A stretch of 32,000 nucleotides of DNA from Mesoplasma florum L1 (lineage in GTDB: Bacteria; Bacillota_I; Bacilli_A; Mycoplasmatales; Mycoplasmataceae), in the NCBI RefSeq assembly GCF_000008305.1, contig NC_006055.1, forward strand, positions 510,001 through 542,000. The letters run 5' to 3'. Under the pieces are notes generated by a model, which ran no database searches, was not told where the DNA came from, and saw nothing but the letters and a program-made list of their open reading frames with translations. Numbering within the stretch: position 1 is the stretch's first letter; each line of letters starts with the position of its first letter. Below are positions 8,513 through 31,943 of the stretch, in pieces. The translations under genes and the position numbers were made by a program.

Positions 8513-11500
8513 TTAGTTAGAATATTTATCTGAAATTATTGAGTATGAGAATATAGAAAGAGCTTCTGATTCTGGTTCTTCACCATTACCTGAGTCTGTT
8601 GATCAAGTTACAACAAAAGTTACTTTAGAACCATCAACAACTTTATCTGAACCTTTTCCTGTTATTTCAACACTTGTTGTTGCTTCATCATCAGTACGAG
8701 CAACTGTAAAGTCTACATAATCAGTTCCATTTACTAATCCAGCTGCAGTTAACACAGTTTCAATTTGTGTTTTAACAGTTGAAACATCATTTCCTTTAGC
8801 AGCTGAAATTTTTAAATCATCAGCTTTAATAATATCTGCTAAATCTTTTGAAAAGTCTGTTGATCAAGTTACAACAAAAGTTACTTTAGAACCATCAACA
8901 ACTTTATCTGAACCTTTTCCTGTTATTTCAACACTTGTTGTTGCTTCATCATCAGTACGAGCAACTGTAAAGTCTACATAATCAGTTCCATTTACTAATC
9001 CAGCTGCAGTTAACACAGTTTCAATTTGTATTTTAACAGCTGAAGCATCATTTCCTTTAGCCGCTGAAATTTTTAAATCATCAGCTTTAATAATATCTGC
9101 TAAATATTTTGAAAAGTCTGTTGATCAAGTTACAACAAAAGTTACTTTAGAACCATCAACAACTTTATCTGAACCTTTTCCTGTTATTTCAACACTTGTT
9201 GTTGCTTCATCATCAGTACGAGCAACTGTAAAGTCTACATAATCAGTTCCATTTACTAATCCAGCTGCAGTTAACACCGTTTCAATTTGTGTTTTAACAG
9301 CTGAATCATCATTTCCTTTAGCAGCTGAAATTTTTAAATCATCAGCTTTAATAATATCTGCTAAATCTTTTGAAAAGTCTGTTGATCAAGTTACAACAAA
9401 AGTTACTTTAGAACCATCAACAACTTTATCTGAACCTTTTCCTGTTATTTCAACACTTGTTGTTGCTTCATCATCAGTACGAGCAACTGTAAAGTCTACA
9501 TAATCAGTTCCATTTACTAATCCAGCTGCAGTTAACACAGTTTCAATTTGTGTTTTAACAGTTGAAACATCATTTCCTTTAGCAGCTGAAATTTTTAAAT
9601 CATCAGCTTTAATAATATCTGCTAAATCTTTTGAAAAGTCTGTTGATCAAGTTACAACAAAAGTTACTTTAGAACCATCAACAACTTTATCTGAACCTTT
9701 TCCTGTTATTTCAACACTTGTTGTTGCTTCATCATCAGTACGAGCAACTGTAAAGTCTACATAATCAGTTCCATTTACTAATCCAGCTGCAGTTAACACA
9801 GTTTCAATTTGTGTTTTAACAGCTGAAACATCATTTCCTTTAGCAGCTGAAATTTTTAAATCATCAGCTTTAATAATATCTGCTAAATCTTTTGAAAAGT
9901 CTGTTGATCAAGTTACAACAAAAGTTACTTTAGAACCATCAACAACTTTATCTGAACCTTTTCCTGTTATTTCAACACTTGTTGTTGCTTCATCATCAGT
10001 ACGAGCAACTGTAAAGTCTACATAATCAGTTCCATTTACTAATCCAGCTGCAGTTAACACAGTTTCAATTTGTATTTTAACAGCTGAAACATCATTTCCT
10101 TTAGCAGCTGAAATTTTTAAATCATCAGCTTTAATAATATCTGCTAAATCTTTTGAAAAGTCTATTGATCAAGTTACAACAAAAGTTACTTTAGAACCAT
10201 CAACAACTTTATCTGAACCTTTTCCTGTTATTTCAACACTTGTTGTTGCTTCATCATCAGTACGAGCAACTGTAAAGTCTACATAATCAGTTCCATTTAC
10301 TAATCCAGCTGCAGTTAACACAGTTTCAATTTGTATTTTAACAGTTGAAACATCATTTCCTTTAGCAGCTGAAATTTTTAAATCATCAGCTTTAATAATA
10401 TCTGCTAAATCTTTTGAAAAGTCTGTTGATCAAGTTACAACAAAAGTTACTTTAGAACCATCAACAACTTTATCTGAACCTTTTCCTGTTATTTCAACAC
10501 TTGTTGTTGCTTCATCATCAGTACGAGCAACTGTAAAGTCTACATAATCAGTTCCATTTACTAATCCAGCTGCAGTTAACACAGTTTCAATTTGTGTTTT
10601 AACAGTTGAAACATCATTTCCTTTAGCAGCTGAAATTTTTAAATCATCAGCTTTAATAATATCTGCTAAATCTTTTGAAAAGTCTGTTGATCAAGTTACA
10701 ACAAAAGTTACTTTAGAACCATCAACAACTTTATCTGAACCTTTTCCTGTTATTTCAACACTTGTTGTTGCTTCATCATCAGTACGAGCAACTGTAAAGT
10801 CTACATAATCAGTTCCATTTACTAATCCAGCTGCAGTTAACACAGTTTCAATTTGTGTTTTAACAGTTGAAACATCATTTCCTTTAGCAGCTGAAATTTT
10901 TAAATCATCAGCTTTAATAATATCTGCTAAATCTTTTGAAAAGTCTGTTGATCAAGTTACAACAAAAGTTACTTTAGAACCATCAACAACTTTATCTGAA
11001 CCTTTTCCTGTTATTTCAACACTTGTTGTTGCTTCATCATCAGTACGAGCAACTGTAAAGTCTACATAATCAGTTCCATTTACTAATCCAGCTGCAGTTA
11101 ACACAGTTTCAATTTGTGTTTTAACAGCTGAAGCATCATTTCCTTTAGCAGCTGAAATTTTTAAATCATCAGCTTTAATAATATCTGCTAAATTTTGTGA
11201 AGAATTACCAACTCTAGCTTTTACACTAAAATCATTTTTTCCTTCAATTACATAATTTTCTTTAAATGTAACAGTAAATTTAATTGTTTCATCGTTTCAG
11301 TCTTTTGGTGTTTCTGTTGGATAAATAACACTATCAACACCAGTAATAGCTTGTACTGCATTTGTAATATCTTCTTGAGCTGCTTCAATGTTTGCATATG
11401 ATTTTCCGTTAATAGCAACTTCAGCCGCTGTTTGAATATCACTAGCTAAAACTTTATATGATTTTCAAGTATGAGGTAAAGTTACATCTCCTGTATAAAC

Positions 11501-12931
11501 AAATTCGTTTTCATCATTAGAATTACCAATAAATTTTCATTCTTTTGTATTTTTTACTACATTTGAATTATCATCTTTTAACAGAATAACTTCCTCTACT
11601 GTAATTTGCCCTTTATTAAATTCAGTATCAACAGCTTTTTGCAATTCATCTAGAGTTCATGTTTTTTCTTCATAATCTTTATCCTTTAAGATAGTTTCTA
11701 ATTCATTTTTAATTGTACTTATATTGGCAGTAACTTTATAATCATGAGTAACTTTAAGTTCTCCTTGATATTGTTTGTTATTTTCTTTTGAACCTTGACC
11801 TGTAATAACAAATTTTTCTGTTTTTTTACCTAGTTCAGAATTATCATAAGTTACAGTTGAATCATCTTCAGTAACATCAAATTCTTCAGAACCATATTTA
11901 GTATTTAATGCAGATTGCAATCCATCTTTAGTTCAAGCTTGATTTTTATGTGCTTCATCATTAACAAAACTTGTTAATTCTTGTTTAAATTCTTCATTAG
12001 TTGATATATCTGTTCTTGACATTAAATTTACAGTAACTTCTACTGTGTTAGTTGTTTGTTCTAAAACATAACCAGTTGATAATGTTAAAGTAACTGTAAA
12101 ACTTGATTTATCATCTTCAACAGATTTATTATATTTAGCCTCAGCTTTTTCAATACCTTTAATTCCTGTTGGTTCTGCATCACTTGCTGCTTCTTTATAA
12201 GCAAATGCAGCTTCAATAGCTGATTTAGCAGCTTCTTTATTATCAAATTTATCGTGATTTGCTAAATCAGTAACAACAGTATTTATTTGTGCATTGCTAA
12301 TTACAGTTTGTTTTGTATATGTATGAGTTAATGTTATTTCACCTATATACTTTAATGTATTTTCTGGATCTGTTGTTGCATTACCTGTAAATGTAAATTC
12401 AGCTTTTTTCTTTGTTTCACCAGTATAGTTATTATCGTCACTATAAGTTCCACCAGAAACTGCTATTTCACCATTTCCAAATTCAGAATCTATCTTAGTT
12501 TGTAAATCAGTAACAGTTCATTCATCATGAGGTTTTTCAGATAGAATGCTTGTCAGTCTTGTTGAAATAACTGAAATATCTTCAGCTTTATTATCTTTTA
12601 CTTCATAAGTTTGAGTTAATGTTAATTGACCTGTATATTTTTTATTATTTGCTTTAAATATAAATTCAGCTTTAGCTATACTTGTTACTTTAGTATAGTC
12701 TTTAAATGAAACTGTAATTTCACCTTCACCAAATTCAGTATCTACTTTTTTTTGTAATTCTGATACATCTCATTTTGCATCAGTTTTTGATTTTAAAATT
12801 GCTTCCAATTTTGATTGCAAGATTCTAATATCGTTTTGCTTTTTCTTGTCTGCATTAGCTATAGCTACACCAGCTACAACAACGTTTGTTGTTAATGTAA
12901 CAACCACTAATAATGCTAATAATTTTTTCAT
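8513..12931 (-). CDS. 1472-aa surface protein: signal/anchor peptide, several ~75-aa mollicute-lipoprotein-type modules, then 10 tandem 87-aa repeats
   Basis: ATG 12931: MKKLLALLVVVTLTTNVVVAGVAIANADKK… (hydrophobic signal, no lipobox Cys). The length of 4419 nt is divisible by 3 and includes track ORF 11657..11920 in frame. The repeats have no Met and one TGA each, which explains their absence from the track. The gene ends …VTWSTDSGNGEEPESEALSIFSYSIISDKYSN* at TAA 8513-8515. Confidence 0.85.
8594..11193 (-). repeat. 10 tandem copies of a 261-bp (87-codon) unit, near-identical
   Basis: The marker gatcaagttacaac recurs at 8601, 8862, 9123, 9384, 9645, 9906, 10167, 10428, 10689 and 10950, exactly 261 bp apart. 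Unit: DLADIIKADDLKISAAKGND[V/A/D]S[T/A]VK[T/I]QIETVLTAAGLVNGTDYVDFTVARTDDEATTSVEITGKGSDKVVDGSKVTFVVTWSTDFSK. Confidence 0.97.
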
Positions 12932-14856: not shown

Positions 14857-17580
14857 TTAATTATTTTCAGGAAATTTTGGTTGTCTTTCCTTGGCTCAAT
14901 TTCCCCCTTGATGATAAAAATTAGCAAAATATTCAACATTTTTAACATCTCAATTAGAAATATCAACATTAAAAGCTTGAGCACGATAAAACATATAACT
15001 CATGTTAGTTACACTTGAGATATTTCATTTTGAAATATCTTGATTAAAAGCTTGAGCACCAAAAAACATACTACTCATATCTGTTACCTTTGATGTATCT
15101 CATGCTACATATTTTTCATTATTTTTTTCTACTTCTTTTGTTGAAATATCACAATTAAAAGCTTGAGCACCAGAAAACATATTACTCATGTTAGTTACAC
15201 TTGAAGTATTTCATTTTGAAATATCACCATTAAAAGCATAAGTTTCAGAAAACATACTACTCATATCAGTTACTTTTGATGTATCTCATGCAACATATTT
15301 TTCATTATTTTTTTCTACTTCTTTTGTTGAAATATCACCATTAAAAGCTTGAGCACCAGAAAACATACTACTCATATCAGTTACACTTGAAGTATTTCAT
15401 TTTGAAATATCACCATTAAAAGCTTCAGCTTCAGAAAACATACCACTCATATTAGTTACTTTTGATGTATCTCATGCAACATATTTTTCATTATTTTGAT
15501 CTACTTCTTTTGTTGAAATATCACCATTAAAATTTTGAGCACCTAAAAACATATTACTCATGTCAGTTACACTTGAAGTATTTCATTTTGAAATATCACC
15601 ATTAAAAGCATAAGTATGATAAAACATATTACTCATATCAGTTACTTTTGATGTATCTCATGCAACATATTTTTCATTATTTTGATCTACTTCTTTTGTT
15701 GAAATATCACCATTAAAAGCTGAAGCATCAGAAAACATACTACTCATGTTAGTTACACTTGAAGTATTTCATTTTGAAATATCACCATTAAAAGCATAAG
15801 TATGATAAAACATATTACTCATATCAGTTACTTTTGATGTATCTCATGCAACATATTTTTCATTATTTTGATCTACTTCTTTTGTTGAAATATCACCATT
15901 AAAAGCTGAAGCACGAGAAAACATATTACTCATGTCAGTTACACTTGAAGTATTTCATTTTGAAATATCGCCATTAAAAGCATAAGTATCAGAAAACATA
16001 CCACTCATGTTAGTTACACTTGAAGTATTTCATTTTGAAATATCACCATTAAAAGCTGAAGAACCAGAAAACATATTACTCATATCAGTTACTTTTGATG
16101 TATCTCATGCAACATATTTTTCATTATTTTGATCTACTTCTTTTGTTGAAATATCACCATTAAAAGCTTGAGCACCATAAAACATATTACTCATGTCAGT
16201 TACACTTGAAGTATTTCATTTTGAAATACCAAAATCCACAATATCACTTTGTGCAAAAATTCAATTCATATTAGTTACATTCGAAACATTTCAACCTGAT
16301 AAGTCAATATTACTAAATGTTGTAAGTTTGAATGTTCCTTCCATGGAATTTACATTTGAAGTATCTCATTTTTTGATATCACTTAAATGATCTCCAGAAT
16401 TAGAATTAGCATAAAATAAATAGTTCAAAGATTTTATGTTTTCATTTAATTTATTTGGATAAACTATATCCTCTGAAAAACGAGTAAAAATGTTTATTGG
16501 TTCATTATTGTCTTCTTCAAAAAATATTCCACAAACTTGACCATTATTATATCAACCAAACTCGATTATTTCAGTAAATTCAATTTCATCTCAATCTTTA
16601 GAACTTGTTCCTTTAAATTCTTTGCTATGGATATTTTCATCTTTATCTATTTTATAAAACATAAGTGTTGAATTTAAAACTGTTTTTATTTTAAATTCGC
16701 CATCAAATTCTGATTTTCATTCATAGTTATGGGTGTTTAATGATACTTTTATTGTAATTTCGTGCTCCTTATCTCATTCCACTTCTCCTAATTTTTTAAT
16801 TTCAATCTTTGGTTCAGTTGTTAAATCAGGATTTATTATTTTATTGAAAGTTTCAATAATAGCTTTTTTAGCTTCACTCTCATCATATTCTTGAAGAATA
16901 GCTGATTTAAAAGATTTTTCCATTACATTTTGATCAATTTTAATAACTTTAGATACTGAAATATTCACATTAAATTTACCTTCAAATGATAAATCATCTC
17001 AAACATAATTTTCTTCGAGCATTACTTTAACTTCAAAAGTTTTTTCCTCAAATGCATATGATGTTAATATTTTAGCTTCAACAGTTTTAATTCCAGAAAC
17101 ATTTTTTAATGAATTATTAAGTTCAGCAATAGCTTCATCCTCAGTTAAATTTTTACCCTGAATTGATTCATTTAACATAGTTTGAATTTCTTCTTTTTTA
17201 ATGACATCATAAGTTCCAACTTTTGCTGAAACTGTGAATTCACCATTAAATGATAAATCATCTCAAATATAATTTTCTTCGAGCATTACTTTAACTTCAA
17301 AAGTTTTTTCCTCAAATGCATATGATGTTAATATTTTAGCTTCAACAGTTTTAATTCCAGAAACATTTTTTAATGAATTATTAAGCTCAGCAATAGCTTC
17401 ATCTTCAGTTAAATTTTTATTCTTAATAGATTCTTCTAATTTCTTTTGTATTTCATTCTGATCAATTTTATTATAAGCAGGGGGTTTATTTAATTTTTTC
17501 ATCGACTCATAAGAAACAATTCCTGTAAGAACACTTGCTGTTAAAGATAAAACAGCTAATAATTGTAATAATTTTTTCAT
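14857..17580 (-). CDS. 907-aa surface protein with BspA-like / DUF285-type 26-residue repeats
   Basis: Track ORFs 17263..17580 and 16774..16968 are in the same frame as stop TAA 14857-14859. The signal peptide is MKKLLQLLAVLSLTASVLTGIV. The C-terminal two thirds consist of …F.ga.aFNGDISKWNTSSVT[DN]MSNMF… units, the 'bacterial surface protein 26-residue repeat' (DUF285) common in the mycoides cluster and Entomoplasmatales. One TGA occurs per unit. Confidence 0.85.
14930..16390 (-). repeat. array of about 26-aa DUF285-type units organised in a 186-bp (62-aa) higher-order repeat
   Basis: The marker ttgttgaaatatcac recurs at 15138, 15324, 15510, 15696 and 15882 (spacing 186 bp), then at 16143 (spacing 261 bp, one extra unit). 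Confidence 0.9.
16975..17500 (-). repeat. 2 x 264-bp (88-aa) tandem duplication in the N-terminal part of the DUF285-like protein
   Basis: aaatcatctcaaa[c/t]ataattttcttcgagcattactttaacttcaaaag occurs at 16991 and 17255. The repeated peptide is …KNLTEDEAIAELNNSLKNVSGIKTVEAKILTSYAFEEKTFEVKVMLEENY[IV]WDDLSF…. Confidence 0.9.
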
Positions 17581-17598: not shown

Positions 17599-18456
17599 TT
17601 AATTTTTAATTTCATTTTTTACTTTTTTCATATAAGCAATTAATTCTTTTTTTGTCAGGTTTCTCAAATTAACTTTTTGTAATTTTTTTGATAATTCTTT
17701 TTCAATCGCAATGCTTCTTAATTTATTTGAGTATTTTTGCAATTCATTTCTTTGTTCATCAATATTGCGTGATCCATCAATTTTAGCTCTTTCAGAGACT
17801 GACATTTTTGGCGTAACTTCTTTTTTAGCTATAGTTTTTCTCTCTTTAAAGTTGACTTCTTCAATATACTCCTCAGCGGTTTCCACTAAGCTATCTTTAT
17901 ATTTTGTTTCCATTTTTGAAACAAAGTCATGTGCATCTTCATCAGAAACATTAGAGTCTTTTTTAAAATTGATTTTTTTTATTTTGTTACTTGAATTGGC
18001 TGTTTTTTTACTTTTGTCATTTTGATTAGATGCTGGTTCAATTTCCAATATATTATTATTATTATTATTATTTAAAAGCTCATAAATAATAAAACCTAGC
18101 ATGCAGGTAATTCCAACGATTAGAATTCAGTTGATTAATAAATCTCAAAAAATTGGAAGTAAGAATATATATCCACCGTTTACACTGTATAATAATCGAA
18201 ATTCTGAAAATGACTTTGAACCTATTGGTCCTGTGAAAAAAGAACTTGTTATTTTTCCATTAGCAAATCAGTTAACATCTGTCTTGTTTATTAAACTAAA
18301 TTCTGATTCAAAAATTACTTTTCATTGACTAGTTCCATTTATTGCCTGATTTATCATCTTAAACATGAATGCTAAAATTATCAAGATAATTATCATTAAG
18401 AATCAAGTTAAGATATTTTTAAATTTATTTTGATTTACTTTTAGTATTTTTTTCAT
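17599..18456 (-). CDS. two-TM membrane protein with long charged C-terminal region; truncated paralog of the TM-HU protein at 26837..27970
   Basis: ATG 18456 with RBS aaaggag. Product MKKILKVNQNKFKNILTWFLMIIILIILAFMF… (triplets checked) runs through TGA into track ORF 17599..18102. It contains an (AAT)7 Asn run and ends …LTKKELIAYMKKVKNEIKN*, which matches …MTKKELILFMKKIGNELRK… of the 26837 protein. Confidence 0.75.
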
Positions 18457-26561: not shown

Positions 26562-26591
26562 AAAAAAGAACCTTACAGTAAGTAAAGTTCC
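26562..26591 (-). terminator. imperfect hairpin + T-run downstream of the XRE gene
   Basis: Minus strand: ggaac-ttta-cttac-t-gtaag-gttc-tttttt. Confidence 0.4.
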
Positions 26592-26622
26592 TTAAATATA
26601 TTTTTTCAGTATAAAGTACAAA

Positions 26623-26850
26623 TTAAGCTTTTAATAATTCTTGAGGTGTTGTTTCAAGTCCTTCAATAAGTTTTTGTAAAATTTTAATTGTTATATTTCT
26701 TCTTCCTCTTTCAAAATCAGAAATATAATTTTTTGAAATGCCACATCTAAAGCCTAATTCTTCTTGAGTTAAACCTTTACTAGATCTAATCTTTCTTAAA
26801 TTAGCTGCAATAATCAAAATTAAATCGTCTTCACCACTATACTTTTTCAT
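26623..26850 (-). CDS. XRE-family helix-turn-helix transcriptional regulator (75 aa)
   Basis: …LRKIRSSKGLTQEELGFRCGISKNYISDFERGRRNITIKILQKLIEGL… is a classic Cro/C1-type HTH. The ATG lies inside the last codons of the upstream gene (14-nt overlap). Confidence 0.88.
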   Translation of the reverse strand: MKKYSGEDDLILIIAANLRKIRSSKGLTQEELGFRCGISKNYISDFERGRRNITIKILQKLIEGLETTPQELLKA

Positions 26851-27970
26851 TATTTAAACTTTCTCTTAAACCTTTTAAAGATTTAAACTTGATTGTCTTA
26901 CGTGAAGGAACCATTTTTAATTCACCAGTTTTCATATCTTTCATTGTTGTTTCATCTACAAAAACAGTTGAAAACTTAGCAAAATTATTAATTTTGATTT
27001 CTGAACCTTCATTAACTAAATTGTTTTCCATTAATTCAAATAAACTATCAACAATTTTTTTAATTTTAACTTTTGTCAATTTATTTTCATTATTTGAAAA
27101 AATTGAATTAACCAAATCATTTTTTGTTACCTTATTTTTTCTTATTACGGGCTTTTTTTGATTTATTTTACCTGCCTCAACAACATCAATATTTTCTGAT
27201 TGTTTTTTTTCATTAATTTGATTTATATTTTCATTTTCAGTAATTTTAATTTCTCCGTCTGTTGAAGCATCTTTAAAATTAAGATATTGATATTCAACTT
27301 TTCTTAATTCATTACCTATTTTTTTCATAAATAGAATTAATTCTTTTTTAGTCATTTCTTCTAAAACTACATCATCAACTTCTATATTATTTAAAATTGC
27401 GTAATTTCTAATTTTATAAGCATTTTTAACTAACTCACTTAAATTTTCTTTGATTAAAACTGATCCATCTGTTTTTGCTCTTTGTTGTAACAAAGTCAAA
27501 TCGTTATCACTTTCATTATTAATTTCTTCAAAAAATGTTTTGTCTTCCTCAAAATGAGGATATAAATCAATATCAGGATTTTCAACTTCTAATACTATTT
27601 CAGTTTCAACTTTTTGATTTTTTATTGAAGCTTTAAAATCTTTTTTTGCTTTTTTTGCTTTTTTGTTTTTAAATTTAATAATTAGAACAATTCAAGTAAG
27701 TACTAAAATAGGTAAAACTATTAGCAAAATAATATTCGATATATAATCAATTAAATTTGGCAAACTTAGATCTGTTGGGGGAATTATTCCAATAGTTTTA
27801 AATGCATCTAAAATATCCGTATTATTTACTAATGCATTTACTATTTTCATTAAAAAGAAAATAACTATTGTAATTAATACAGAAAACGCCAAGCTTACTT
27901 TAATTACATTACTTTTTGATTTTTTTAAAAAATTATTTTTTTGCTTTTTATTTTTTTCTTGTTTTTCCAT
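26837..27970 (-). CDS. two-TM membrane protein with C-terminal HU/IHF-like DNA-binding domain (377 aa)
   Basis: Track ORFs 27692..28021 and 26837..27499 are joined through one TGA (…PILVLTW-IVLIIKFKNKKAKKAKK…). Start chosen at MEKQEKNKK (27970, RBS gaaagga), because the longer ORF start lies inside the upstream terminator hairpin. The C-terminal 90 aa, VTKNDLVNSIFS…LTKVKIKKIVDSLFELMENNLVNEGSEIKINNFAKFSTVFVDETTMKDMKTGELKMVPSRKTIKFKSLKGLRESL, follows the HU pattern (K.eLi…v..vl..i…L..G..v.l.gFG.F……r.p.TGe.i.ip…v.FK.gk.Lk). Confidence 0.65.
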
Positions 27971-27991
27971 TAGTATCCTTTCTAAATACAA

Positions 27992-28018
27992 AACCCTTCT
28001 TTTATTTAAAGAAGGGTT
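27992..28018 (-). terminator. terminator hairpin after the 78-aa gene
   Basis: aacccttct pairs with agaagggtt, followed by a T-rich tail on the minus strand. Confidence 0.6.
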
Positions 28019-28047
28019 CAAAGTTATTTTTGATAAACCATTTCTTA

Positions 28048-28284
28048 TTATAAATTTATTCGATTTATAATATCTTCTAAATCATTAATCAATTTATTTA
28101 ATTGTGAGTTAATCATTTCAGCATCTGATATAGAAATTCTAAATTCACCTAATTTAAGTAAATTTTTATTTGAACTAACTTCATTAATTAAATTTTTACT
28201 TAATTGTTTTTTAAATTTAATTAAATCTTCTAAATTAGTTTCTACATCATGACCACTAAAAAATTTTTTAATTTGTTCTGTCAT
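28048..28284 (-). CDS. small helical (coiled-coil-like) hypothetical protein, 78 aa
   Basis: Track ORF MTEQIKKFFSGHDVETNLEDLIKFKKQLSKNLINEV…LNKLINDLEDIINRINL. The start lies 19 nt after the upstream lipoprotein stop. No recognisable family. Confidence 0.55.
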   Translation of the reverse strand: MTEQIKKFFSGHDVETNLEDLIKFKKQLSKNLINEVSSNKNLLKLGEFRISISDAEMINSQLNKLINDLEDIINRINL

Positions 28285-28303: not shown

Positions 28304-29896
28304 TTAATCAACTACAGCAATTTCTTGAAGTAGAACATTTAATGTTCTATTTGCAGCTTTATATGTACCATTACTGTTTTTTGTTAAAAATACTGCGTAA
28401 TAACTAGTATTTTGAGTATTTTCAATAGTTGTTCTAGTCAATGCGTTGCTTGAAGAAACAAACTCATCTATTGATTTAGTTTGCCCTAAAACGCTCTCAA
28501 TATTATTATTTAAGTTTTCTTGAGTTTTATCAAAGAATAAAACTTCATCAACTTTAAATAAACTTTCACTTGCATCAGAACCATAGTTAAATGCAGTTGT
28601 ATTCGTAAAGTAATAACTGTTAACAGATTCACTTATTTTTTTGTCTTTATCATCACCAGTAAAAATATTTAAACTTTTTACAAATTCTTTTTGTTGAAGT
28701 TTATCATTATCTTGGTTTCATTCATTAGTAATTTGTTGATTTGATAAATATTCTTTTTGAATTTTACTTGTTGTGTTAACATTTTTATCAAACTGAATAA
28801 ATTGTGGTTCAATGTATTTATTACCTTTACTTGTCAAGACATGTCATTTTAAAGGATTTGATTGTATTTTTAAAATTTCAATCTCTGTTTTTATTTTATA
28901 TTGTTCACTTTCAATTACTTCTTTTGAAAATTCATAACCAACATTTGGTTTTAAATTGACACTAACTTGATTTGTTCAATAAATTGAATCAATATTTGTT
29001 TCATTTTCAGTTATTCCTGAATCAGTAATACTATCAATTGCAATTTGTTCGTTTGCTAAAATTTCTTTTTGTTGAGTTAAAAGCTTATCATGAAAATCAT
29101 TATAATCGCTAAATTTTTCGTTTTTAATTCAATCATTGATTGATTTTGTTGCTTCAGTTATAACAGTGTCTTCTATAATAACTGCATCTACAATTGTTCC
29201 TTGACATGTAAATTTTTTATCTTCCTCAGTAACTTCATCTTCAAATTCATAGTATCCATCATCATTATTTTTAATTCCAATTGTTCCACTTATTTCAAAT
29301 TTTGTAAGTTTTGGAATTGATGGATCAGTTGGCTGAGTTGAATCAAGAATTGTTACTGTAATAGTTTTAAAAACTAATCCTTCAGCTGGAGTGCCTGGAA
29401 TATTTGCATTTGGTACAAATGTACTTCTAACAGCATTTTCACTTTTGAAATAAATTGTATCTAAAAAGCTTTGTAACGCTGTTATAGTTGTGGCCAATTC
29501 TTGTTGACTTATTTTTTTCTTAGGTGCTGGTTTGTTTCCACCAAAGTTATAAATTAAAGTTATTGAGCCTGTATATTTGTAACCATTTTTTGAAGTACCA
29601 TTACCAGTAAATACAATACTTTGTTGTTTATTGGTAATTGTTCCTTCTTTTATTTCATCACTAGCTTTTACACTAATTCCACCAGCTTCATCAACCTTTT
29701 GATTAACAAGTTCTGCTTCTAGTTCATCATTAGTTCAAGGCTCTTGATCATTTTCTTTACTATGCAATATTATAGTCAAAAATCTTTCAATTGAATCAAT
29801 ATTTTGTTTTTCCGCTTTAGTAGAACATGATACAGCAATCGTTGATGCTGAACTTGTAACTACTAAAGATGATAACACTAATAATAATTTTTTCAT
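28304..29896 (-). CDS. lipoprotein (530 aa)
   Basis: ATG 29896: MKKLLLVLSSLVVTSSASTIAVS-C-STKAEKQ. It contains track ORF 29129..29497 in frame and ends …NVLLQEIAVVD* at TAA 28304-28306. The N-terminal module ILHSKENDQEPWTNDELEAELVNQKVDEAGGISVK…YKYTGSITLIYNF is the same type as the modules in the 1472-aa protein. Confidence 0.85.
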
Positions 29897-29921: not shown

Positions 29922-31943
29922 TTATTGAACTCTTTCAATGAAAGTATATCTACCATGTGATTGAATATCAAATCTTTGACCTTTACCAAAAGAAACGTCT
30001 AATAAATCAGTTGAAATACCAAAAGTTAAAGCTGAATTATTTCTTGTAGACATTGATAAACCACTCATTAACATTGTTCCATTGTTACCTGTATATGATG
30101 AATCTGCAATTGTTGCGCTTCTTACACCTCTATAATTTGATTGAGATGAATTTCTGTTTACATCTGAATAAGTTAAGTTTAAATAAGTTAAACCTTCGAT
30201 TTTTGAAATTAAGTTTTGTTCTTTAATTTGTTGAGCTTCAACTCCTGTGTTTAAACTTAATGCATTTGCAAAATTAGTTCCATTAATTGTTCCATTCATT
30301 GCGCCTGTTTCTTTTCAGTAATCTCAAATATTAAAATCTGTTCCATCTTCTTTTTTGACACCTGTTTTACCTGACATTTTAAATTTATTTTGTTTTTGTT
30401 GCAATGAGGCATTTGGTGATGATCAAATATCACTTTCAGAAATACCATAGAACTTGTGGAATGTATTTAACATTTGTTCAATTCCTTTATAGTATGCACT
30501 AAATATTTTTGATGTTTGGGGGCTATTTACTTCAGAAGCTGATGTTGCTTTATTGTCAATAGCGATTGAATATGTGAAACCAACATCACTTAATCTTTGA
30601 GTATATCCATTTCGTAAAGAAATAGTTAAACCTTTATTTGTAATTGTTTCACTTGAAATTGACATTGCTAATAAATCAGGAGTTCTTTCATTTTCTTGAA
30701 TCACTGATGTTTGAACTCTTCTGTCATATTCACTTTTTAATTTATTATTATAATTTTGTAAAACTTGTTGTCATTGATTTTCAAGAGATTTATATAATAC
30801 TTGATCTCCATTAACTCTTGAACCGTCTAATTGAATTTGATCTGTTGTCTTAACTTTTCCAAAGAAAGTATTTCATTCAGGTCATGCGCCTTGATCAAAC
30901 TCAACACTAATTTTTCCTGTGTTGCTGAAATGATTTGTTTGCTCTTGTCTAATAATATCATTTTCATTATAGTAACTTACATTTATTGCGTTAACAACAG
31001 CAGAGCTAGTATTTCTAAAGTATTTGTTTTCAATAGTTGAAGTCATAGATTTTGCAAAGCTTTGATTGTACTTATTAATTGCTGATTTATAAGTTGTTGT
31101 ATTAGCAGTTAATACATCTTGAATTGTTAAGCTTGGCTCTAGAGCTTTTAATGTTTCAAAATCAATGTAAACTTTTGAATTTGCTTCTTTTAACATGTCT
31201 CCTGCTAATTCATTACTAATTTTGTTAATTGCAGCAATAATTTCACCATTATCAGAAACAGTAATAACAACTGTTCCTCTTACAGTATTTGTCACAGTAG
31301 CTTGTTCAGCATCTCTGTATCTATAAGTTGATGAGAAGTTTAGGTTCATACCTGATATAAATCCTTCACCATCAGCTCCTGTATTACCATAAGTCATTTC
31401 TGCATTTTCATAGTCGAATTTAATATCATCAATTCATCTTGAACCAAAGCTTCCAATTAAAACGCTATATGTTGAAGTACTAATAGCATTTCTTAAATCT
31501 ACCATTGCTTTAGCAGGACTTAATAGTGATTCAACATTTGAAGTTAAATCTTTTTGTTGATCAGGTGTTAAAACATCATAAAACTTAACTGATTGTTCAT
31601 TTGCATATGTTGAAGTTTCAGGCCCTGTTTCTCCACCACCTGTTCCAGCTGATGCTTGATCATAAATTGATTTTAAATTATCTTTTTGGAAGAAAATTAA
31701 ACCATTATTTGAGGCTTCTGTATCTAATAGAGTTGATCTTGTTGCCATTGGAGATGAAACAATTGTTGAAAATTTAGTTTGAACTTCAGATTCAAATTGT
31801 CTTATTAATTGTCTTATTGCTTCTTTTTCTTTTTCTGCTGGATCAACTGGTGGCTCAACTGGATCTTTTGAACATGAAATCACAGCCATTGATGAAGTAC
31901 CAACTACAGCGAATGATGATAATATTAATAATAATTTTTTCAT
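29922..31943 (-). CDS. lipoprotein (673 aa)
   Basis: Four track ORFs (31434..31943, 30882..31397, 30423..30704, 29922..30299) share one frame and are separated only by TGA. N-terminus: [39 protein letters not shown]. Confidence 0.85.

What the first reader, a model, noticed from the sequence alone, without database searches (positions are those of the whole stretch)
26623..27970. Membrane-tethered HU/IHF-like protein translationally coupled to an XRE regulator
The 377-aa product has a basic N-terminus and two TM helices. A poly-Lys stretch follows immediately (KFKNKKAKKAKK), and by the positive-inside rule this places the rest in the cytoplasm. An acidic, low-complexity linker comes next, and then a C-terminal ~90 aa that follow the HU/IHF fold pattern (…FAKFS…KTGE…FKSLKGL…) but lack the usual R-N-P arm residues. 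Its last 14 nt overlap the ATG of a 75-aa XRE HTH regulator. HU proteins are normally small and soluble. A fusion to a membrane anchor, paired with a repressor-like protein and embedded among lipoprotein genes, looks like a nucleoid or DNA-to-membrane tether, or a membrane-sequestered regulator. I am not aware of a described equivalent.
Basis: partly seen in the sequence, partly recalled or inferred. Interest (0 to 1): 0.7.

Follow-up and report, generated by a model that had tools for sequence, protein, structure and literature searches.

The report
Membrane-anchored HU paralogue in Mesoplasma
This is a real, expressed but dispensable gene of Mesoplasma florum (mfl456) that fuses a two-helix membrane anchor to a divergent copy of the bacterial DNA-packaging protein HU; it closes a conserved transporter and lipoprotein operon and overlaps a small repressor gene, so it more likely acts locally at that operon than as a general chromosome anchor.

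Summary
The window is Mesoplasma florum L1, genome 510,001-542,000. TGA encodes Trp here (62 in-frame TGA, 0 TGG), so the 377-aa ORF (mfl456) is intact. It has two strong hydrophobic helices with K-rich flanks (N-in/C-in). Its C-terminal domain matches Pfam Bac_DNA_binding over the whole profile (65 bits, E 6e-18). The arm lacks the canonical Arg residues and the intercalating Pro. The gene overlaps a 75-aa XRE gene (mfl455) by 14 nt.

- The protein is already annotated as HU family.
- Membrane-anchored HU domains were predicted in Bacteroidetes and haloarchaea in 2017.
- Published M. florum data argue against a general nucleoid tether: about 9 molecules per cell versus about 9,500 for the canonical HU, and the gene is non-essential and non-core.

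The conserved unit is an eight-gene module: an ABC ATPase, an ABC-2-like permease, three lipoproteins, a 78-aa protein, TM-HU and XRE. M. florum also has two more two-TM HU paralogues (mfl428, mfl670).

The most likely role is a local, membrane-proximal DNA-architectural or regulatory partner of the XRE protein. This is inferred, not shown. I rate it a new variant of a known kind, of moderate interest.

The parts
26837..27970 (-). mfl456 coding sequence (377 aa, code 4): a two-TM membrane anchor, an orphan helical domain and a C-terminal HU/IHF-family domain. The stop codon TAG is at 26837-26839.
27976..27981 (-). Shine-Dalgarno-like AAAGGA, 5 nt upstream of the mfl456 ATG; conserved in all orthologous loci.
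27899..27970 (-). Basic cytoplasmic N-tail, aa 1-24 (9 K/R, 2 D/E).
27839..27898 (-). TM helix 1, about aa 25-44.
   Evidence: hydropathy; long helix in the AF2 model
27743..27838 (-). Predicted extracellular loop, aa 45-76 (1 K/R, 4 D/E), with the conserved motifs IPP and PN(I/L)IDY.
27677..27742 (-). TM helix 2, about aa 77-98. It contains Trp93, encoded by the TGA at 27692-27694.
27611..27676 (-). Poly-Lys juxtamembrane segment, aa 99-120 (KFKNKKAKKAKK...; 11 K/R, 1 D/E); cytoplasmic by the positive-inside rule.
27569..27610 (-). Variable acidic linker, aa 121-134. With the poly-Lys segment it forms the region aa 99-134, which has dN/dS of about 0.5-1.8.
27296..27568 (-). Conserved orphan cytoplasmic helical domain, aa 135-225 (YPHxEEDKTFFEE...QQRAKTDGS...MTKKELILFMKKIG). 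It is the most constrained part of the protein (dN/dS 0.11-0.38). It is shared with the window paralogue at 17599-18456 and matches no Pfam family or PDB sequence.
27170..27295 (-). Unconstrained linker, aa 226-267 (dN/dS 1.0-3.3; length variable).
27122..27169 (-). Conserved basic extension preceding HU helix 1, aa 268-283 (KINQKKPVIRKNKVTK). It aligns with the RRPKVTK extension of Borrelia Hbb.
26852..27130 (-). HU/IHF-family domain, aa 281-373 (PF00216, 65 bits). The beta-arm, aa 334-362 (26885-26971), has V, T, K, D and M in place of R55, R58, R61, N62 and P63. The core aromatic residues (F330, F333, F362) and the lateral basic residues (K363, K366, R369) are kept. dN/dS is 0.24-0.32.
26623..26850 (-). 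mfl455: a 75-aa XRE/Cro-C1 HTH protein consisting of a DNA-binding domain only.
26837..26850 (-). 14-nt overlap between the end of mfl456 and the start of mfl455 (ATGAAAAAGTATAG). The same overlap is conserved in M. grammopterae, M. tabanidae and M. entomophilum; in M. coleopterae the overlap is 1 nt.
27991..28019 (-). Intrinsic terminator hairpin that ends the upstream six-gene transcription unit TU_255 (mfl462 to mfl457). It lies about 20 nt upstream of the mfl456 ATG, and its sequence is conserved in 6 of 7 loci.
   Evidence: Matteau 2020 Datasets EV2 and EV3
26565..26593 (-). Intrinsic terminator hairpin downstream of mfl455, closing the pair.
28048..28284 (-). mfl457: a 78-aa predicted coiled-coil protein, always found immediately upstream of the TM-HU gene.
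28304..29896 (-). mfl458: a 530-aa lipoprotein of the conserved module.
29922..31943 (-). mfl459: a 673-aa lipoprotein of the conserved module. The rest of the module (mfl460 to mfl462) lies beyond the window end.

Best explanation
mfl456 is a genuine, expressed, dispensable membrane protein of Mesoplasma florum.

Architecture. A two-helix hairpin anchors it in the cell membrane with both ends in the cytoplasm. The cytoplasmic part consists of a conserved orphan helical domain, a floppy linker, a conserved basic stretch and a divergent HU/IHF-family domain. Like all HU-fold proteins, that domain should work as a dimer.

Context. The gene is the seventh of a conserved eight-gene, Mesoplasma-specific module:
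- an ABC ATPase with a long coiled-coil tail;
- a lipoprotein;
- an ABC-2-like permease with a large ectodomain;
- two further lipoproteins;
- a 78-aa coiled-coil protein;
- TM-HU (mfl456);
- a minimal XRE repressor (mfl455).

A conserved terminator separates mfl456 from the transporter genes, and mfl456 overlaps the XRE gene.

Proposed mechanism (inferred). A few TM-HU dimers per cell sit at the membrane. They hold or bend DNA through the basic extension and the lateral lysines of the HU body. The XRE dimer, made in step with TM-HU from the overlapping gene, supplies sequence specificity. Together they would form a membrane-proximal nucleoprotein complex at the module's own control region. 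Such a complex could set the module's expression, possibly in response to the state of the membrane or of the transporter, and could keep this membrane-protein locus near the membrane.

It is not the cell's general nucleoid organiser or tether.

Shown: the ORF, the genetic code, the HU-family domain, the altered arm, the overlap with XRE, the conserved synteny, purifying selection on three modules, and (from published data) low abundance and dispensability.

Inferred: the topology (from hydropathy and charge), dimerisation, DNA binding, cooperation with XRE, and the target locus.
For: - Code 4 and an intact ORF.
- Identity to M. florum L1 mfl456.
- PF00216 at 65.4 bits over the full profile. 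A family profile hits only HU/IHF chains in the PDB.
- Core aromatic and lateral basic residues are kept, and the basic extension is conserved.
- Two hydrophobic helices with strongly basic cytoplasmic flanks.
- dN/dS is 0.24-0.32 for the HU domain, 0.11-0.38 for the middle domain and 0.28-0.63 for the TM hairpin, against about 0.5-3.3 for the linkers.
- The eight-gene synteny is conserved in M. florum, M. grammopterae, M. tabanidae, M. coleopterae and M. entomophilum, with different flanking genes in each species.
- The TM-HU/XRE overlap is conserved.
- An XRE remnant in W. somnilux shows that the pairing is ancestral.
- Terminators bracket the pair. Published data place the end of TU_255 at the upstream terminator and assign no TSS to mfl456, although its mean expression is 310 FPKM. 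This fits read-through of that terminator. The hairpin is conserved.
- Four validated MS peptides, about 8.6 molecules per cell, against 9,543 for the canonical HU mfl201.
- Non-essential and non-core.
- The XRE protein is a bare 75-aa HTH domain most similar to small autoregulatory controller proteins.
Against: - No direct evidence of DNA binding, dimerisation, interaction with XRE or regulation of the module.
- The arm lacks two of the three conserved arginines and the intercalating proline, and has gained acidic residues. DNA binding may therefore be weak, different in kind, or lost.
- The XRE gene is absent in M. chauliocola, where the full-length TM-HU persists. TM-HU can therefore function without it.
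- RNA-seq counts for the short mfl455 gene are erratic (about 0 in five of six replicates) and the protein was not detected, so co-expression is unproven.
- The module's promoter lies outside the sequence I could fetch, so no operator could be sought.
- Both AF2 models are of low confidence (pLDDT 49.5 and 52.7).
- The MS copy number of a membrane protein is probably an underestimate.
Confidence: 0.45

Rival explanations
1. The HU fold is repurposed for protein binding. The divergent HU domain no longer binds DNA. With the conserved middle domain, it serves as a cytoplasmic protein-interaction platform. It could be a subunit or adaptor of the ABC-transporter and lipoprotein complex, for example docking the coiled-coil ATPase mfl462 or the 78-aa mfl457. 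Alternatively it could be a membrane sink that sequesters the XRE repressor, as the PtsG transporter sequesters the repressor Mlc.
For: - The arm arginines and the intercalating proline are replaced, and acidic residues have been gained.
- The most constrained part of the protein is the orphan middle domain, not the HU domain.
- The W. somnilux homologue keeps the TM hairpin and middle domain but has lost the HU domain.
- The window paralogue at 17599-18456 has a TM hairpin and the middle domain but no HU domain.
- Linkage to the transporter genes is strict.
- Burroughs 2017 proposed a shift away from DNA binding for some membrane-anchored HU-CCDC81 proteins.
Against: - The HU domain is under purifying selection (dN/dS 0.24-0.32).
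- It keeps the lateral basic residues K363, K366 and R369, and a conserved basic extension resembling that of DNA-binding Hbb.
- It scores far above the Pfam threshold for the DNA-binding family.
- In W. somnilux the loss of HU coincides with decay of the XRE gene, which suggests that HU and XRE work together.
Confidence: 0.27
2. General tether between nucleoid and membrane. The protein anchors chromosomal DNA non-specifically to the membrane, either as a homodimer or as a heterodimer with the abundant canonical HU mfl201. This would help organise or segregate the chromosome in a wall-less cell, as predicted for TM-linked HUs of Bacteroidetes and haloarchaea.
For: - The architecture places an HU-family domain on a long flexible tether at the inner face of the membrane.
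- There is an in-silico precedent (PMC5499826).
- The dimer-core residues are compatible with HU-type dimerisation.
- M. florum has three such proteins, which suggests a general theme.
Against: - About 8.6 molecules per cell, against 9,543 for HU and about 522 for the paralogue mfl670. With its H1-like AKKP repeats and an intact GINPS arm tip, mfl670 is the far better candidate for a general tether.
- Non-essential and non-core, and confined to a handful of species.
- Strict operon context and coupling to XRE point to a local role.
- The arm is degenerate.
Confidence: 0.15
3. Annotation artefact or decaying gene. The long ORF would be a chance fusion of a membrane ORF and an HU pseudogene, caused by misreading a stop codon or by a recent deletion, and would have no function as a single protein.
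For: - Under the standard bacterial code the ORF is split at the TGA.
- The gene is non-core and non-essential.
- One species (W. somnilux) has a truncated version.
Against: - TGA is a sense codon here (62 TGA, 0 TGG).
- Full-length orthologues occur in at least six species, with all three modules under purifying selection.
- The protein was detected by mass spectrometry with four validated peptides, and the mRNA averages 310 FPKM.
Confidence: 0.01

Closest known systems
Canonical bacterial HU (for example M. florum mfl201/hupB, Spiroplasma melliferum HU 5L8Z, B. subtilis HBsu)
   Same: The C-terminal domain belongs to the same Pfam family, with full profile coverage. It is 36% identical to mfl201 over 96 aa. 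The order of secondary-structure elements is the same, and the core aromatics and lateral lysines are conserved.
   Different: - 377 aa with a two-TM anchor and an extra domain, against about 90 aa and soluble.
- The arm lacks R55, R58 and P63.
- About 9 molecules per cell against about 9,500.
- Dispensable rather than essential.
- Operon-linked and coupled to an XRE gene.
Borrelia burgdorferi Hbb (PDB 2NP2) and IHF: site-preferring, strongly bending members of the family
   Same: Hbb is the best profile match in the PDB (E 4e-9). The basic extension before helix 1 (RKNKVTK against RRPKVTK) is shared. Like IHF, the proposed role is as an architectural partner of a sequence-specific factor.
   Different: Hbb and IHF are soluble and keep the intercalating proline and the arm arginines. 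NCBIfam IHF-alpha and IHF-beta equivalog scores (33 bits) are far below their cut-offs (111-120), so this is not an IHF orthologue.
Membrane-anchored HU-superfamily proteins predicted by Burroughs, Kaur, Zhang and Aravind 2017 (PMC5499826): Bacteroidetes HU-CCDC81-TM-SPOR/LysM proteins, and halobacterial HUs with N-terminal TM helices
   Same: The idea is the same: an HU-fold domain held at the cytoplasmic face of the membrane. Some of those proteins also have degenerate DNA-contact residues, and they were proposed to act in DNA-to-envelope tethering. The halobacterial versions also have the TM helices N-terminal to the HU domain.
   Different: - Different lineage (Mollicutes).
- The domain order is opposite to the Bacteroidetes type, and there is no peptidoglycan-binding ectodomain (the organism has no wall).
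- An extra orphan domain, an ABC-transporter and lipoprotein operon context, and XRE coupling.
- The TM and middle module has no detectable homologue outside Mesoplasma and Williamsoniiplasma, so the resemblance is convergent.
- None of these proteins has been studied experimentally, as far as I could find.
M. florum paralogues mfl428 and mfl670 (two TM helices, a linker and an HU domain)
   Same: The overall plan is the same, and both are also non-core and non-essential.
   Different: - Their TM hairpin is of a different type (NGxxxW...LxPIFxDxxINW), with no significant similarity to that of mfl456.
- They keep the INPS arm tip.
- They lack the middle domain and an XRE partner.
- mfl670 is about 60 times more abundant and has H1-like AKKP repeats.
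Membrane-integrated one-component transcription regulators (ToxR/CadC; BcrR of Enterococcus; VtrA) and the membrane-anchored nucleoid protein Rv3852 of M. tuberculosis
   Same: These also have a DNA-binding domain tethered to the membrane and acting on nearby or specific loci. In these systems DNA binding pulls a locus to the membrane and couples envelope signals to transcription (PMC6320335, PMC10082841 and PMC8233713, found).
   Different: They use unrelated DNA-binding folds (winged HTH, XRE HTH, H-NS-like) and have one TM helix plus a periplasmic sensor, or four TM helices. Here the tethered domain is an HU fold, and the sequence-specific HTH is a separate soluble protein. BcrR is cited from my own knowledge and was not checked here.

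Membership tests
HU/IHF family (Pfam PF00216 Bac_DNA_binding) | Sequence matches the family HMM above the curated threshold over the full domain length. | tested here: met
   65.4 bits against a cut-off of 22.4, E 5.7e-18, aa 281-373, profile positions 1-90 of 90. PHROGs phrog_379 'DNA binding protein' at 8e-13. All 14 significant PDB profile hits are HU/IHF-family chains.
HU/IHF family (Pfam PF00216 Bac_DNA_binding) | The alpha1-alpha2-beta1-beta2-arm-beta3-alpha3 fold. | tested here: inconclusive
   The AF2 secondary structure has the right order of elements (H12-20, H29-44, E57-59, E62-73, E80-91, H94-105), but mean pLDDT is 52.7. The Foldseek top hits are HU/IHF chains, but only at E about 0.02 and TM about 0.3.
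HU/IHF family (Pfam PF00216 Bac_DNA_binding) | A conserved hydrophobic dimer core (equivalents of the GFGxF motif and F79). | tested here: met
   NNFAKF aligns with GFGKF (F330 and F333 kept; the two Gly become N and A). F362 aligns with F79. Dimerisation itself was not tested.
HU/IHF family (Pfam PF00216 Bac_DNA_binding) | DNA-contacting arm: R55, R58, R61 and the intercalating P63 (the 'RNP' motif). | tested here: not met
   The aligned residues are V, T, K (D at N62) and M. This pattern is conserved across the family (TMKD(I/M)KTGE).
HU/IHF family (Pfam PF00216 Bac_DNA_binding) | Binds and bends DNA. | not testable with these tools
   This needs EMSA or ChIP. The lateral basic residues K363, K366 and R369 and a conserved basic extension are present.
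IHF alpha/beta orthologues (NCBIfam NF001401, NF001222, TIGR00987, TIGR00988) | Score at or above the equivalog cut-off. | tested here: not met
   23-33 bits against cut-offs of 111-120.
XRE / Cro-C1 HTH regulators (PF01381), for mfl455 | An HTH_3 domain above threshold. | tested here: met
   59.9 bits against a cut-off of 23, E 2.5e-16, aa 18-72, profile positions 1-55 of 55.
Restriction-modification controller (C) proteins, for mfl455 | A small XRE dimer encoded with, and regulating, an adjacent R-M system. | tested here: not met
   The sequence resembles PADLOC Control_protein (5.8e-16). However, no restriction or methylase gene lies in the module or next to it in M. florum.
Bacteroidetes membrane-anchored HU-CCDC81 clade (Burroughs 2017) | N-terminal HU-CCDC81 domain(s), then a TM helix, then an extracellular SPOR/LysM domain. 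| tested here: not met
   The domain order is reversed and there is no SPOR or LysM domain. Pfam HU-CCDC81_euk_1 scores only E 0.098, 13 bits against a cut-off of 26.
Halobacterial N-terminal-TM HU proteins (Burroughs 2017, supplement) | Homology of the whole protein, including the TM module. | tested here: not met
   An exhaustive HMMER search of 1.84 billion representatives with the HU-less homologue P0017 found only this family (3 representatives). The architectural analogy stands. The halobacterial sequences themselves were not examined.
ToxR/CadC-type membrane one-component regulators | A cytoplasmic OmpR-type winged-HTH domain, one TM helix and a periplasmic sensor domain. | tested here: not met
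   No winged-HTH or sensor domain was found by Pfam. The protein has two TM helices and only a 32-aa loop outside the cell.

The most novel reading that the evidence does not exclude
Mesoplasma may have evolved its own small family of membrane-tethered HU proteins (mfl428, mfl456, mfl670, plus an HU-less relative). These would physically couple particular chromosomal loci that encode surface proteins and transporters to the cell membrane.

Within that family, mfl456 together with its overlapping XRE gene would form a two-protein, membrane-coupled switch. The HU-fold dimer at the membrane would provide DNA bending and anchoring, and the soluble XRE protein would provide sequence recognition. 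Transcription of the ABC-transporter and lipoprotein operon, and co-transcriptional insertion of its products, would then be controlled at the membrane.

This would be the first experimentally tractable case of an HU-fold domain used as the output of a membrane-bound regulator, in a near-minimal cell.
Probability: 0.2. Interest if true: 0.75.

Novelty: new variant of a known kind. Interest (0 to 1): 0.5.

Why it matters
Little is known about how wall-less, near-minimal bacteria organise their chromosome relative to the membrane, or how they regulate their many lineage-specific surface lipoproteins. M. florum is a leading chassis for whole-cell models and genome design.

Membrane-anchored HU-fold proteins have been predicted in other phyla, but I found no experimental study of any of them. 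Here the gene is dispensable and its product has been detected by mass spectrometry. The organism also has transformation, transposon and ChIP-exo tools, so the idea can be tested directly.

Whole-cell chromosome models of mycoplasma-like cells currently count only the soluble HU. Three membrane-tethered HU paralogues exist in M. florum, and one of them (mfl670) is present at about 500 copies per cell. This is relevant to those models even if mfl456 itself proves to be a local regulator.

If mfl456 is simply an accessory regulator of one non-essential operon, the finding is of limited, lineage-specific interest.

Tried and rejected
1. Standard-code ORF calling split the gene at the TGA. Rejected after the codon count showed code 4.
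2. A homologue search with the HU domain alone returned nothing, not even the family itself, because of the limits of the word index. I therefore could not build a deep alignment for structure prediction.
3. AF2 on the full-length protein and on the HU domain alone gave low confidence (pLDDT 49.5 and 52.7). The Foldseek result is consistent with HU but is not independent evidence. I did not run fold searches on the middle domain because the model is unreliable there.
4. I tested whether the middle domain is a degenerate HU half or a known fold. Pfam found nothing. The PDB profile search gave a best E of 0.036. hhalign against the HU profile gave 1.3% probability, with only the 10-residue TKKELI motif aligning. 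Rejected. A resemblance to SAP/HeH-type motifs that I recalled from memory has no HMM support.
5. I considered a phage, mobile-element or defence-system origin. PADLOC gave no hit for mfl456 or mfl457. PHROGs gave only the generic HU and XRE families. No integrase or transposase lies in the module. The differing flanks between species remain unexplained.
6. Weak Pfam hits of the TM region to T4SS_pilin and TcpE (E 0.06-0.9) were dismissed as an effect of hydrophobic composition.
7. I looked for an internal or dedicated promoter for mfl456 and mfl455. The consensus scan found fewer promoter-like sites than in shuffled sequence (10 against 14.7). No TSS is listed for either gene in Matteau 2020.
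8. The module's main promoter (genome position about 548,670) lies outside the window and outside every locus I could fetch, so I could not search for an XRE operator.
Full report
**What is there.** The window has 18-32% GC. Its large ORFs contain 62 in-frame TGA codons and no TGG, so the organism is a Mollicute that uses genetic code 4. With that code, the minus-strand ORF at 26837-27970 encodes a 377-aa protein with a single TGA (Trp93, 27692-27694). The protein is 100% identical to AAT75814.1 / WP_011183354.1 of Mesoplasma florum L1. Coordinates in the supplements of Matteau et al. 2020 place the window at genome positions 510,001-542,000. They identify the gene as mfl456 (peg.463) and the downstream gene as mfl455 (peg.462).

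**Checking the observation.**
- Two 19-residue hydropathy peaks (2.64 and 3.35) define helices at about aa 25-44 and 77-98.
- The N-tail has 9 K/R and 2 D/E. The 32-aa loop has 1 and 4. The segment after TM2 (KFKNKKAKKAKK...) has 11 and 1. By the positive-inside rule both termini are cytoplasmic.
- Residues 121-160 are strongly acidic (14 D/E, 1 K/R).
- Pfam assigns aa 281-373 to PF00216 Bac_DNA_binding at 65.4 bits (cut-off 22.4), E 5.7e-18, covering all 90 profile positions. A profile built from the family's own HU domains hits only HU/IHF-family chains in the PDB. The best are Borrelia Hbb 2NP2 (E 4e-9) and Spiroplasma melliferum HU 5L8Z (E 3e-7).
- In the alignments to 5L8Z and to M. florum's own HU, the arm positions R55, R58, R61, N62 and P63 are V, T, K, D and M. 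The core aromatics (F330, F333, F362) and the lateral basic residues (K363, K366, R369) are retained.
- The XRE gene (26623-26850, 75 aa, HTH_3 E 2.5e-16) starts 14 nt before the mfl456 stop codon.
- The flanking genes mfl451, 453, 454, 458 and 459 all carry lipoprotein signal peptides.

An alignment of ten family members shows that the best-conserved parts are the TM hairpin with its loop and a segment at about aa 135-225. Nei-Gojobori estimates give the following picture.

| Region | dN/dS |
|---|---|
| Middle domain (aa 135-225) | 0.11-0.38 |
| HU domain (aa 284-373) | 0.24-0.32 |
| TM hairpin (aa 25-98) | 0.28-0.63 |
| Two linkers (aa 99-134 and 226-267) | about 0.5-3.3 |

The protein is thus three constrained modules on two floppy tethers, plus a conserved basic patch (aa 268-283) that aligns with the RRPKVTK extension of Hbb. 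The middle domain is predicted to be helical. It matches no Pfam family and no PDB sequence, and it does not match the HU profile (hhalign probability 1.3%). An exhaustive HMMER scan of 1.84 billion representative proteins, using the naturally HU-less Williamsoniiplasma homologue as query, found only this family. The TM and middle module is therefore a clade-restricted orphan.

**Structure prediction.** The results were weak. The full-length model has pLDDT 49.5 and the HU domain alone 52.7. The causes are a shallow alignment and the folding of an obligate dimer as a monomer. The order of secondary-structure elements is that of HU, and the Foldseek top hits are HU/IHF chains. At E about 0.02 and TM about 0.3, this is only consistent with HU. 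The fold assignment rests on the HMM evidence.

**Genomic context.** In M. florum, M. grammopterae, M. tabanidae, M. coleopterae and M. entomophilum the gene is the seventh of a strictly conserved eight-gene array:

1. ABC ATPase of about 955 aa with a roughly 700-aa acidic coiled-coil tail (mfl462)
2. 623-aa lipoprotein (mfl461)
3. 604-aa membrane protein with 5-6 N-terminal TM helices, a large ectodomain and a C-terminal TM helix (mfl460)
4. 673-aa lipoprotein (mfl459)
5. 530-aa lipoprotein (mfl458)
6. 78-aa coiled-coil protein (mfl457)
7. TM-HU (mfl456)
8. XRE (mfl455)

The genes downstream of the array differ in every species. The TM-HU/XRE overlap is conserved: 14 nt in four species and 1 nt in M. 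coleopterae. M. chauliocola has a full-length TM-HU but no XRE gene. W. somnilux has lost the HU domain, and a remnant of the XRE N-terminus follows directly after the truncated gene (tblastn E 5e-4). The pairing is therefore ancestral but has been lost twice.

**Published functional data.** Matteau et al. 2020 (PMC7745072) reconstruct a transcription unit, TU_255. It runs from a mapped TSS at genome position 548,666 through mfl462 to mfl457 and ends at the terminator at window 27993-28016, about 20 nt before the mfl456 start codon. No TSS is assigned to mfl456 or mfl455. My own scan finds that hairpin and a second one after mfl455, against 0.1 expected by chance. The upstream hairpin is conserved in six of seven loci. 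mfl456 mRNA averages 310 FPKM, against 229-1,153 for the large upstream genes. This fits partial read-through of a built-in attenuating terminator. Counts for the short genes mfl455 and mfl457 are erratic, and I do not interpret them.

By mass spectrometry, mfl456 is detected with four validated peptides and estimated at about 8.6 molecules per cell. mfl455 is not detected. The canonical 90-aa HU (mfl201) is at 9,543 molecules per cell. Baby et al. 2018 (PMC5893858) class mfl456 and mfl455 as non-core among 13 strains, non-essential by transposon mutagenesis and absent from JCVI-syn3.0. They class mfl201 as core and essential.

**Paralogues.** M. florum has two further proteins with two TM helices, a linker and an HU domain. 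These are mfl428 (271 aa, about 21 molecules per cell) and mfl670 (441 aa, H1-like AKKP/VEE repeats, about 522 molecules per cell, with its own TSS). Both keep the INPS arm tip. The window ORF at 17599-18456 (285 aa) combines their type of TM hairpin (48% identity to mfl670, E 7e-26) with the mfl456 middle domain (43% identity, E 2e-9), and it has no HU domain. It lies 18 nt upstream of a 907-aa DUF285/BspA-like repeat surface protein. The modules have thus been shuffled within a lineage-specific family whose members lie next to surface-protein genes. The HU domain of mfl456 is about as close to canonical mfl201 (36%, E 5e-13) as to the other TM-HUs.

**Interpretation.** The abundance, dispensability, narrow distribution, strict operon linkage and coupling to a bare XRE HTH domain point to a local role. 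I favour a regulatory or architectural role at this module, carried out at the membrane. They argue against a general nucleoid tether, for which mfl670 is the better candidate.

The altered arm leaves two possibilities open. One is atypical DNA binding through the basic extension and the body lysines, with XRE providing specificity (my best explanation, confidence 0.45). The other is loss of DNA binding in favour of protein interactions through the HU and middle domains, including membrane sequestration of XRE (confidence 0.27). The second is supported by the higher conservation of the middle domain and by the existence of HU-less relatives. The first is supported by continued purifying selection on the HU domain and by the joint loss of HU and XRE in W. 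somnilux. None of the functional steps is shown.

**Comparison with what is known.** The domain is a member of the HU/IHF Pfam family but fails the arm-residue criterion, and it is not an IHF orthologue. Membrane-anchored HU-superfamily proteins were predicted computationally by Burroughs et al. 2017 in Bacteroidetes (HU-CCDC81-TM-SPOR/LysM) and in halobacteria (N-terminal TM helices plus HU), with a proposed nucleoid-tethering role. The present protein resembles the halobacterial plan but shares no detectable homology in the anchor.

Functional analogues with unrelated DNA-binding folds include ToxR/CadC, VtrA and the membrane-anchored nucleoid protein Rv3852. No paper in the searchable library names mfl456, mfl455 or mfl428. 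The 2024 M. florum review lists mapping of regulator binding sites as future work.

**Verdict.** This is a new, convergent variant of a known kind: a membrane-tethered HU-fold protein, uncharacterised experimentally but readily testable in a model near-minimal bacterium. Interest 0.5.

Noticed in passing
window 17599-18456 (-), with neighbour 14857-17580 (-): A 285-aa two-TM protein with no HU domain. Its C-terminus carries the same orphan 'middle domain' as mfl456 (43% identity over 65 aa, E 2e-9). Its TM hairpin and loop match mfl670 and mfl428. It lies 18 nt upstream of a 907-aa DUF285/BspA-like repeat surface protein, with its own RBS.
   Followed up: partly
outside the window: M. florum genome 502,912-503,728 (mfl428) and 778,356-779,682 (mfl670): Two further paralogues with two TM helices, a linker and an HU domain. 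mfl670 has H1-like AKKP/VEE repeats and keeps the GINPS arm tip. It is present at about 522 molecules per cell with 56% MS coverage, and may be the real tether between nucleoid and membrane. Neither seems to be discussed in the literature I could search.
   Followed up: partly
L004 8001-8984 (Williamsoniiplasma somnilux): The orthologue is truncated at 305 aa, keeping the TM hairpin and middle domain but not the HU domain. A remnant of the XRE N-terminus (aligning to aa 6-27) follows directly after its stop codon. A deletion therefore removed the HU domain and disabled the XRE gene together.
   Followed up: yes
L005 1-12806 (M. entomophilum CG007): The module is present twice, in inverted orientation. 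Two identical inverted 201-aa ABC_tran fragments at 11757-12806 mark a rearrangement junction. The copy shown lacks the 78-aa gene and part of the hairpin.
   Followed up: no
L006 1-2238 (M. florum mfl462; beyond the window end): The ABC ATPase at the head of the operon carries a roughly 700-aa, highly acidic, repetitive coiled-coil tail with no TM segment. This is an unusual architecture for an ABC ATPase.
   Followed up: partly
window 27991-28019 (-) and the orthologous loci in alignment A5: The terminator hairpin between mfl457 and mfl456 is conserved almost base for base across species, together with the RBS. It may act as an attenuator that sets the ratio of TM-HU/XRE to transporter transcripts.
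   Followed up: partly
window 7292-7684 (-), mfl442: A 130-aa ORF begins MQKLKVDELKDIKGG, which looks like a double-glycine (bacteriocin-type) leader peptide. This is unexpected in a Mollicute. Its RNA-seq counts are near zero in most replicates.
   Followed up: no
L002 11746-15160 (M. chauliocola): About 2.6 kb downstream of the module in this species lies an Eco57I-type restriction-modification gene followed by an AIPR (abortive-infection) gene. This suggests the region is a variable or defence-prone part of the genome.
   Followed up: no
L008 14116-14343 (M. coleopterae): A second 75-aa XRE paralogue lies 3 kb downstream of the first, again among hypothetical surface-protein genes. Small XRE genes may commonly accompany lipoprotein clusters in this genus.
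   Followed up: no
Matteau 2020 Datasets EV5 and EV6 (PMC7745072), as held as text: In Dataset EV6 the last two columns (conserved domains and amino-acid sequence) are out of register with the gene rows. In Dataset EV5, genes shorter than about 300 nt (mfl455, mfl457, mfl201) have erratic read counts between replicates. Values for short genes should therefore not be over-interpreted.
   Followed up: partly
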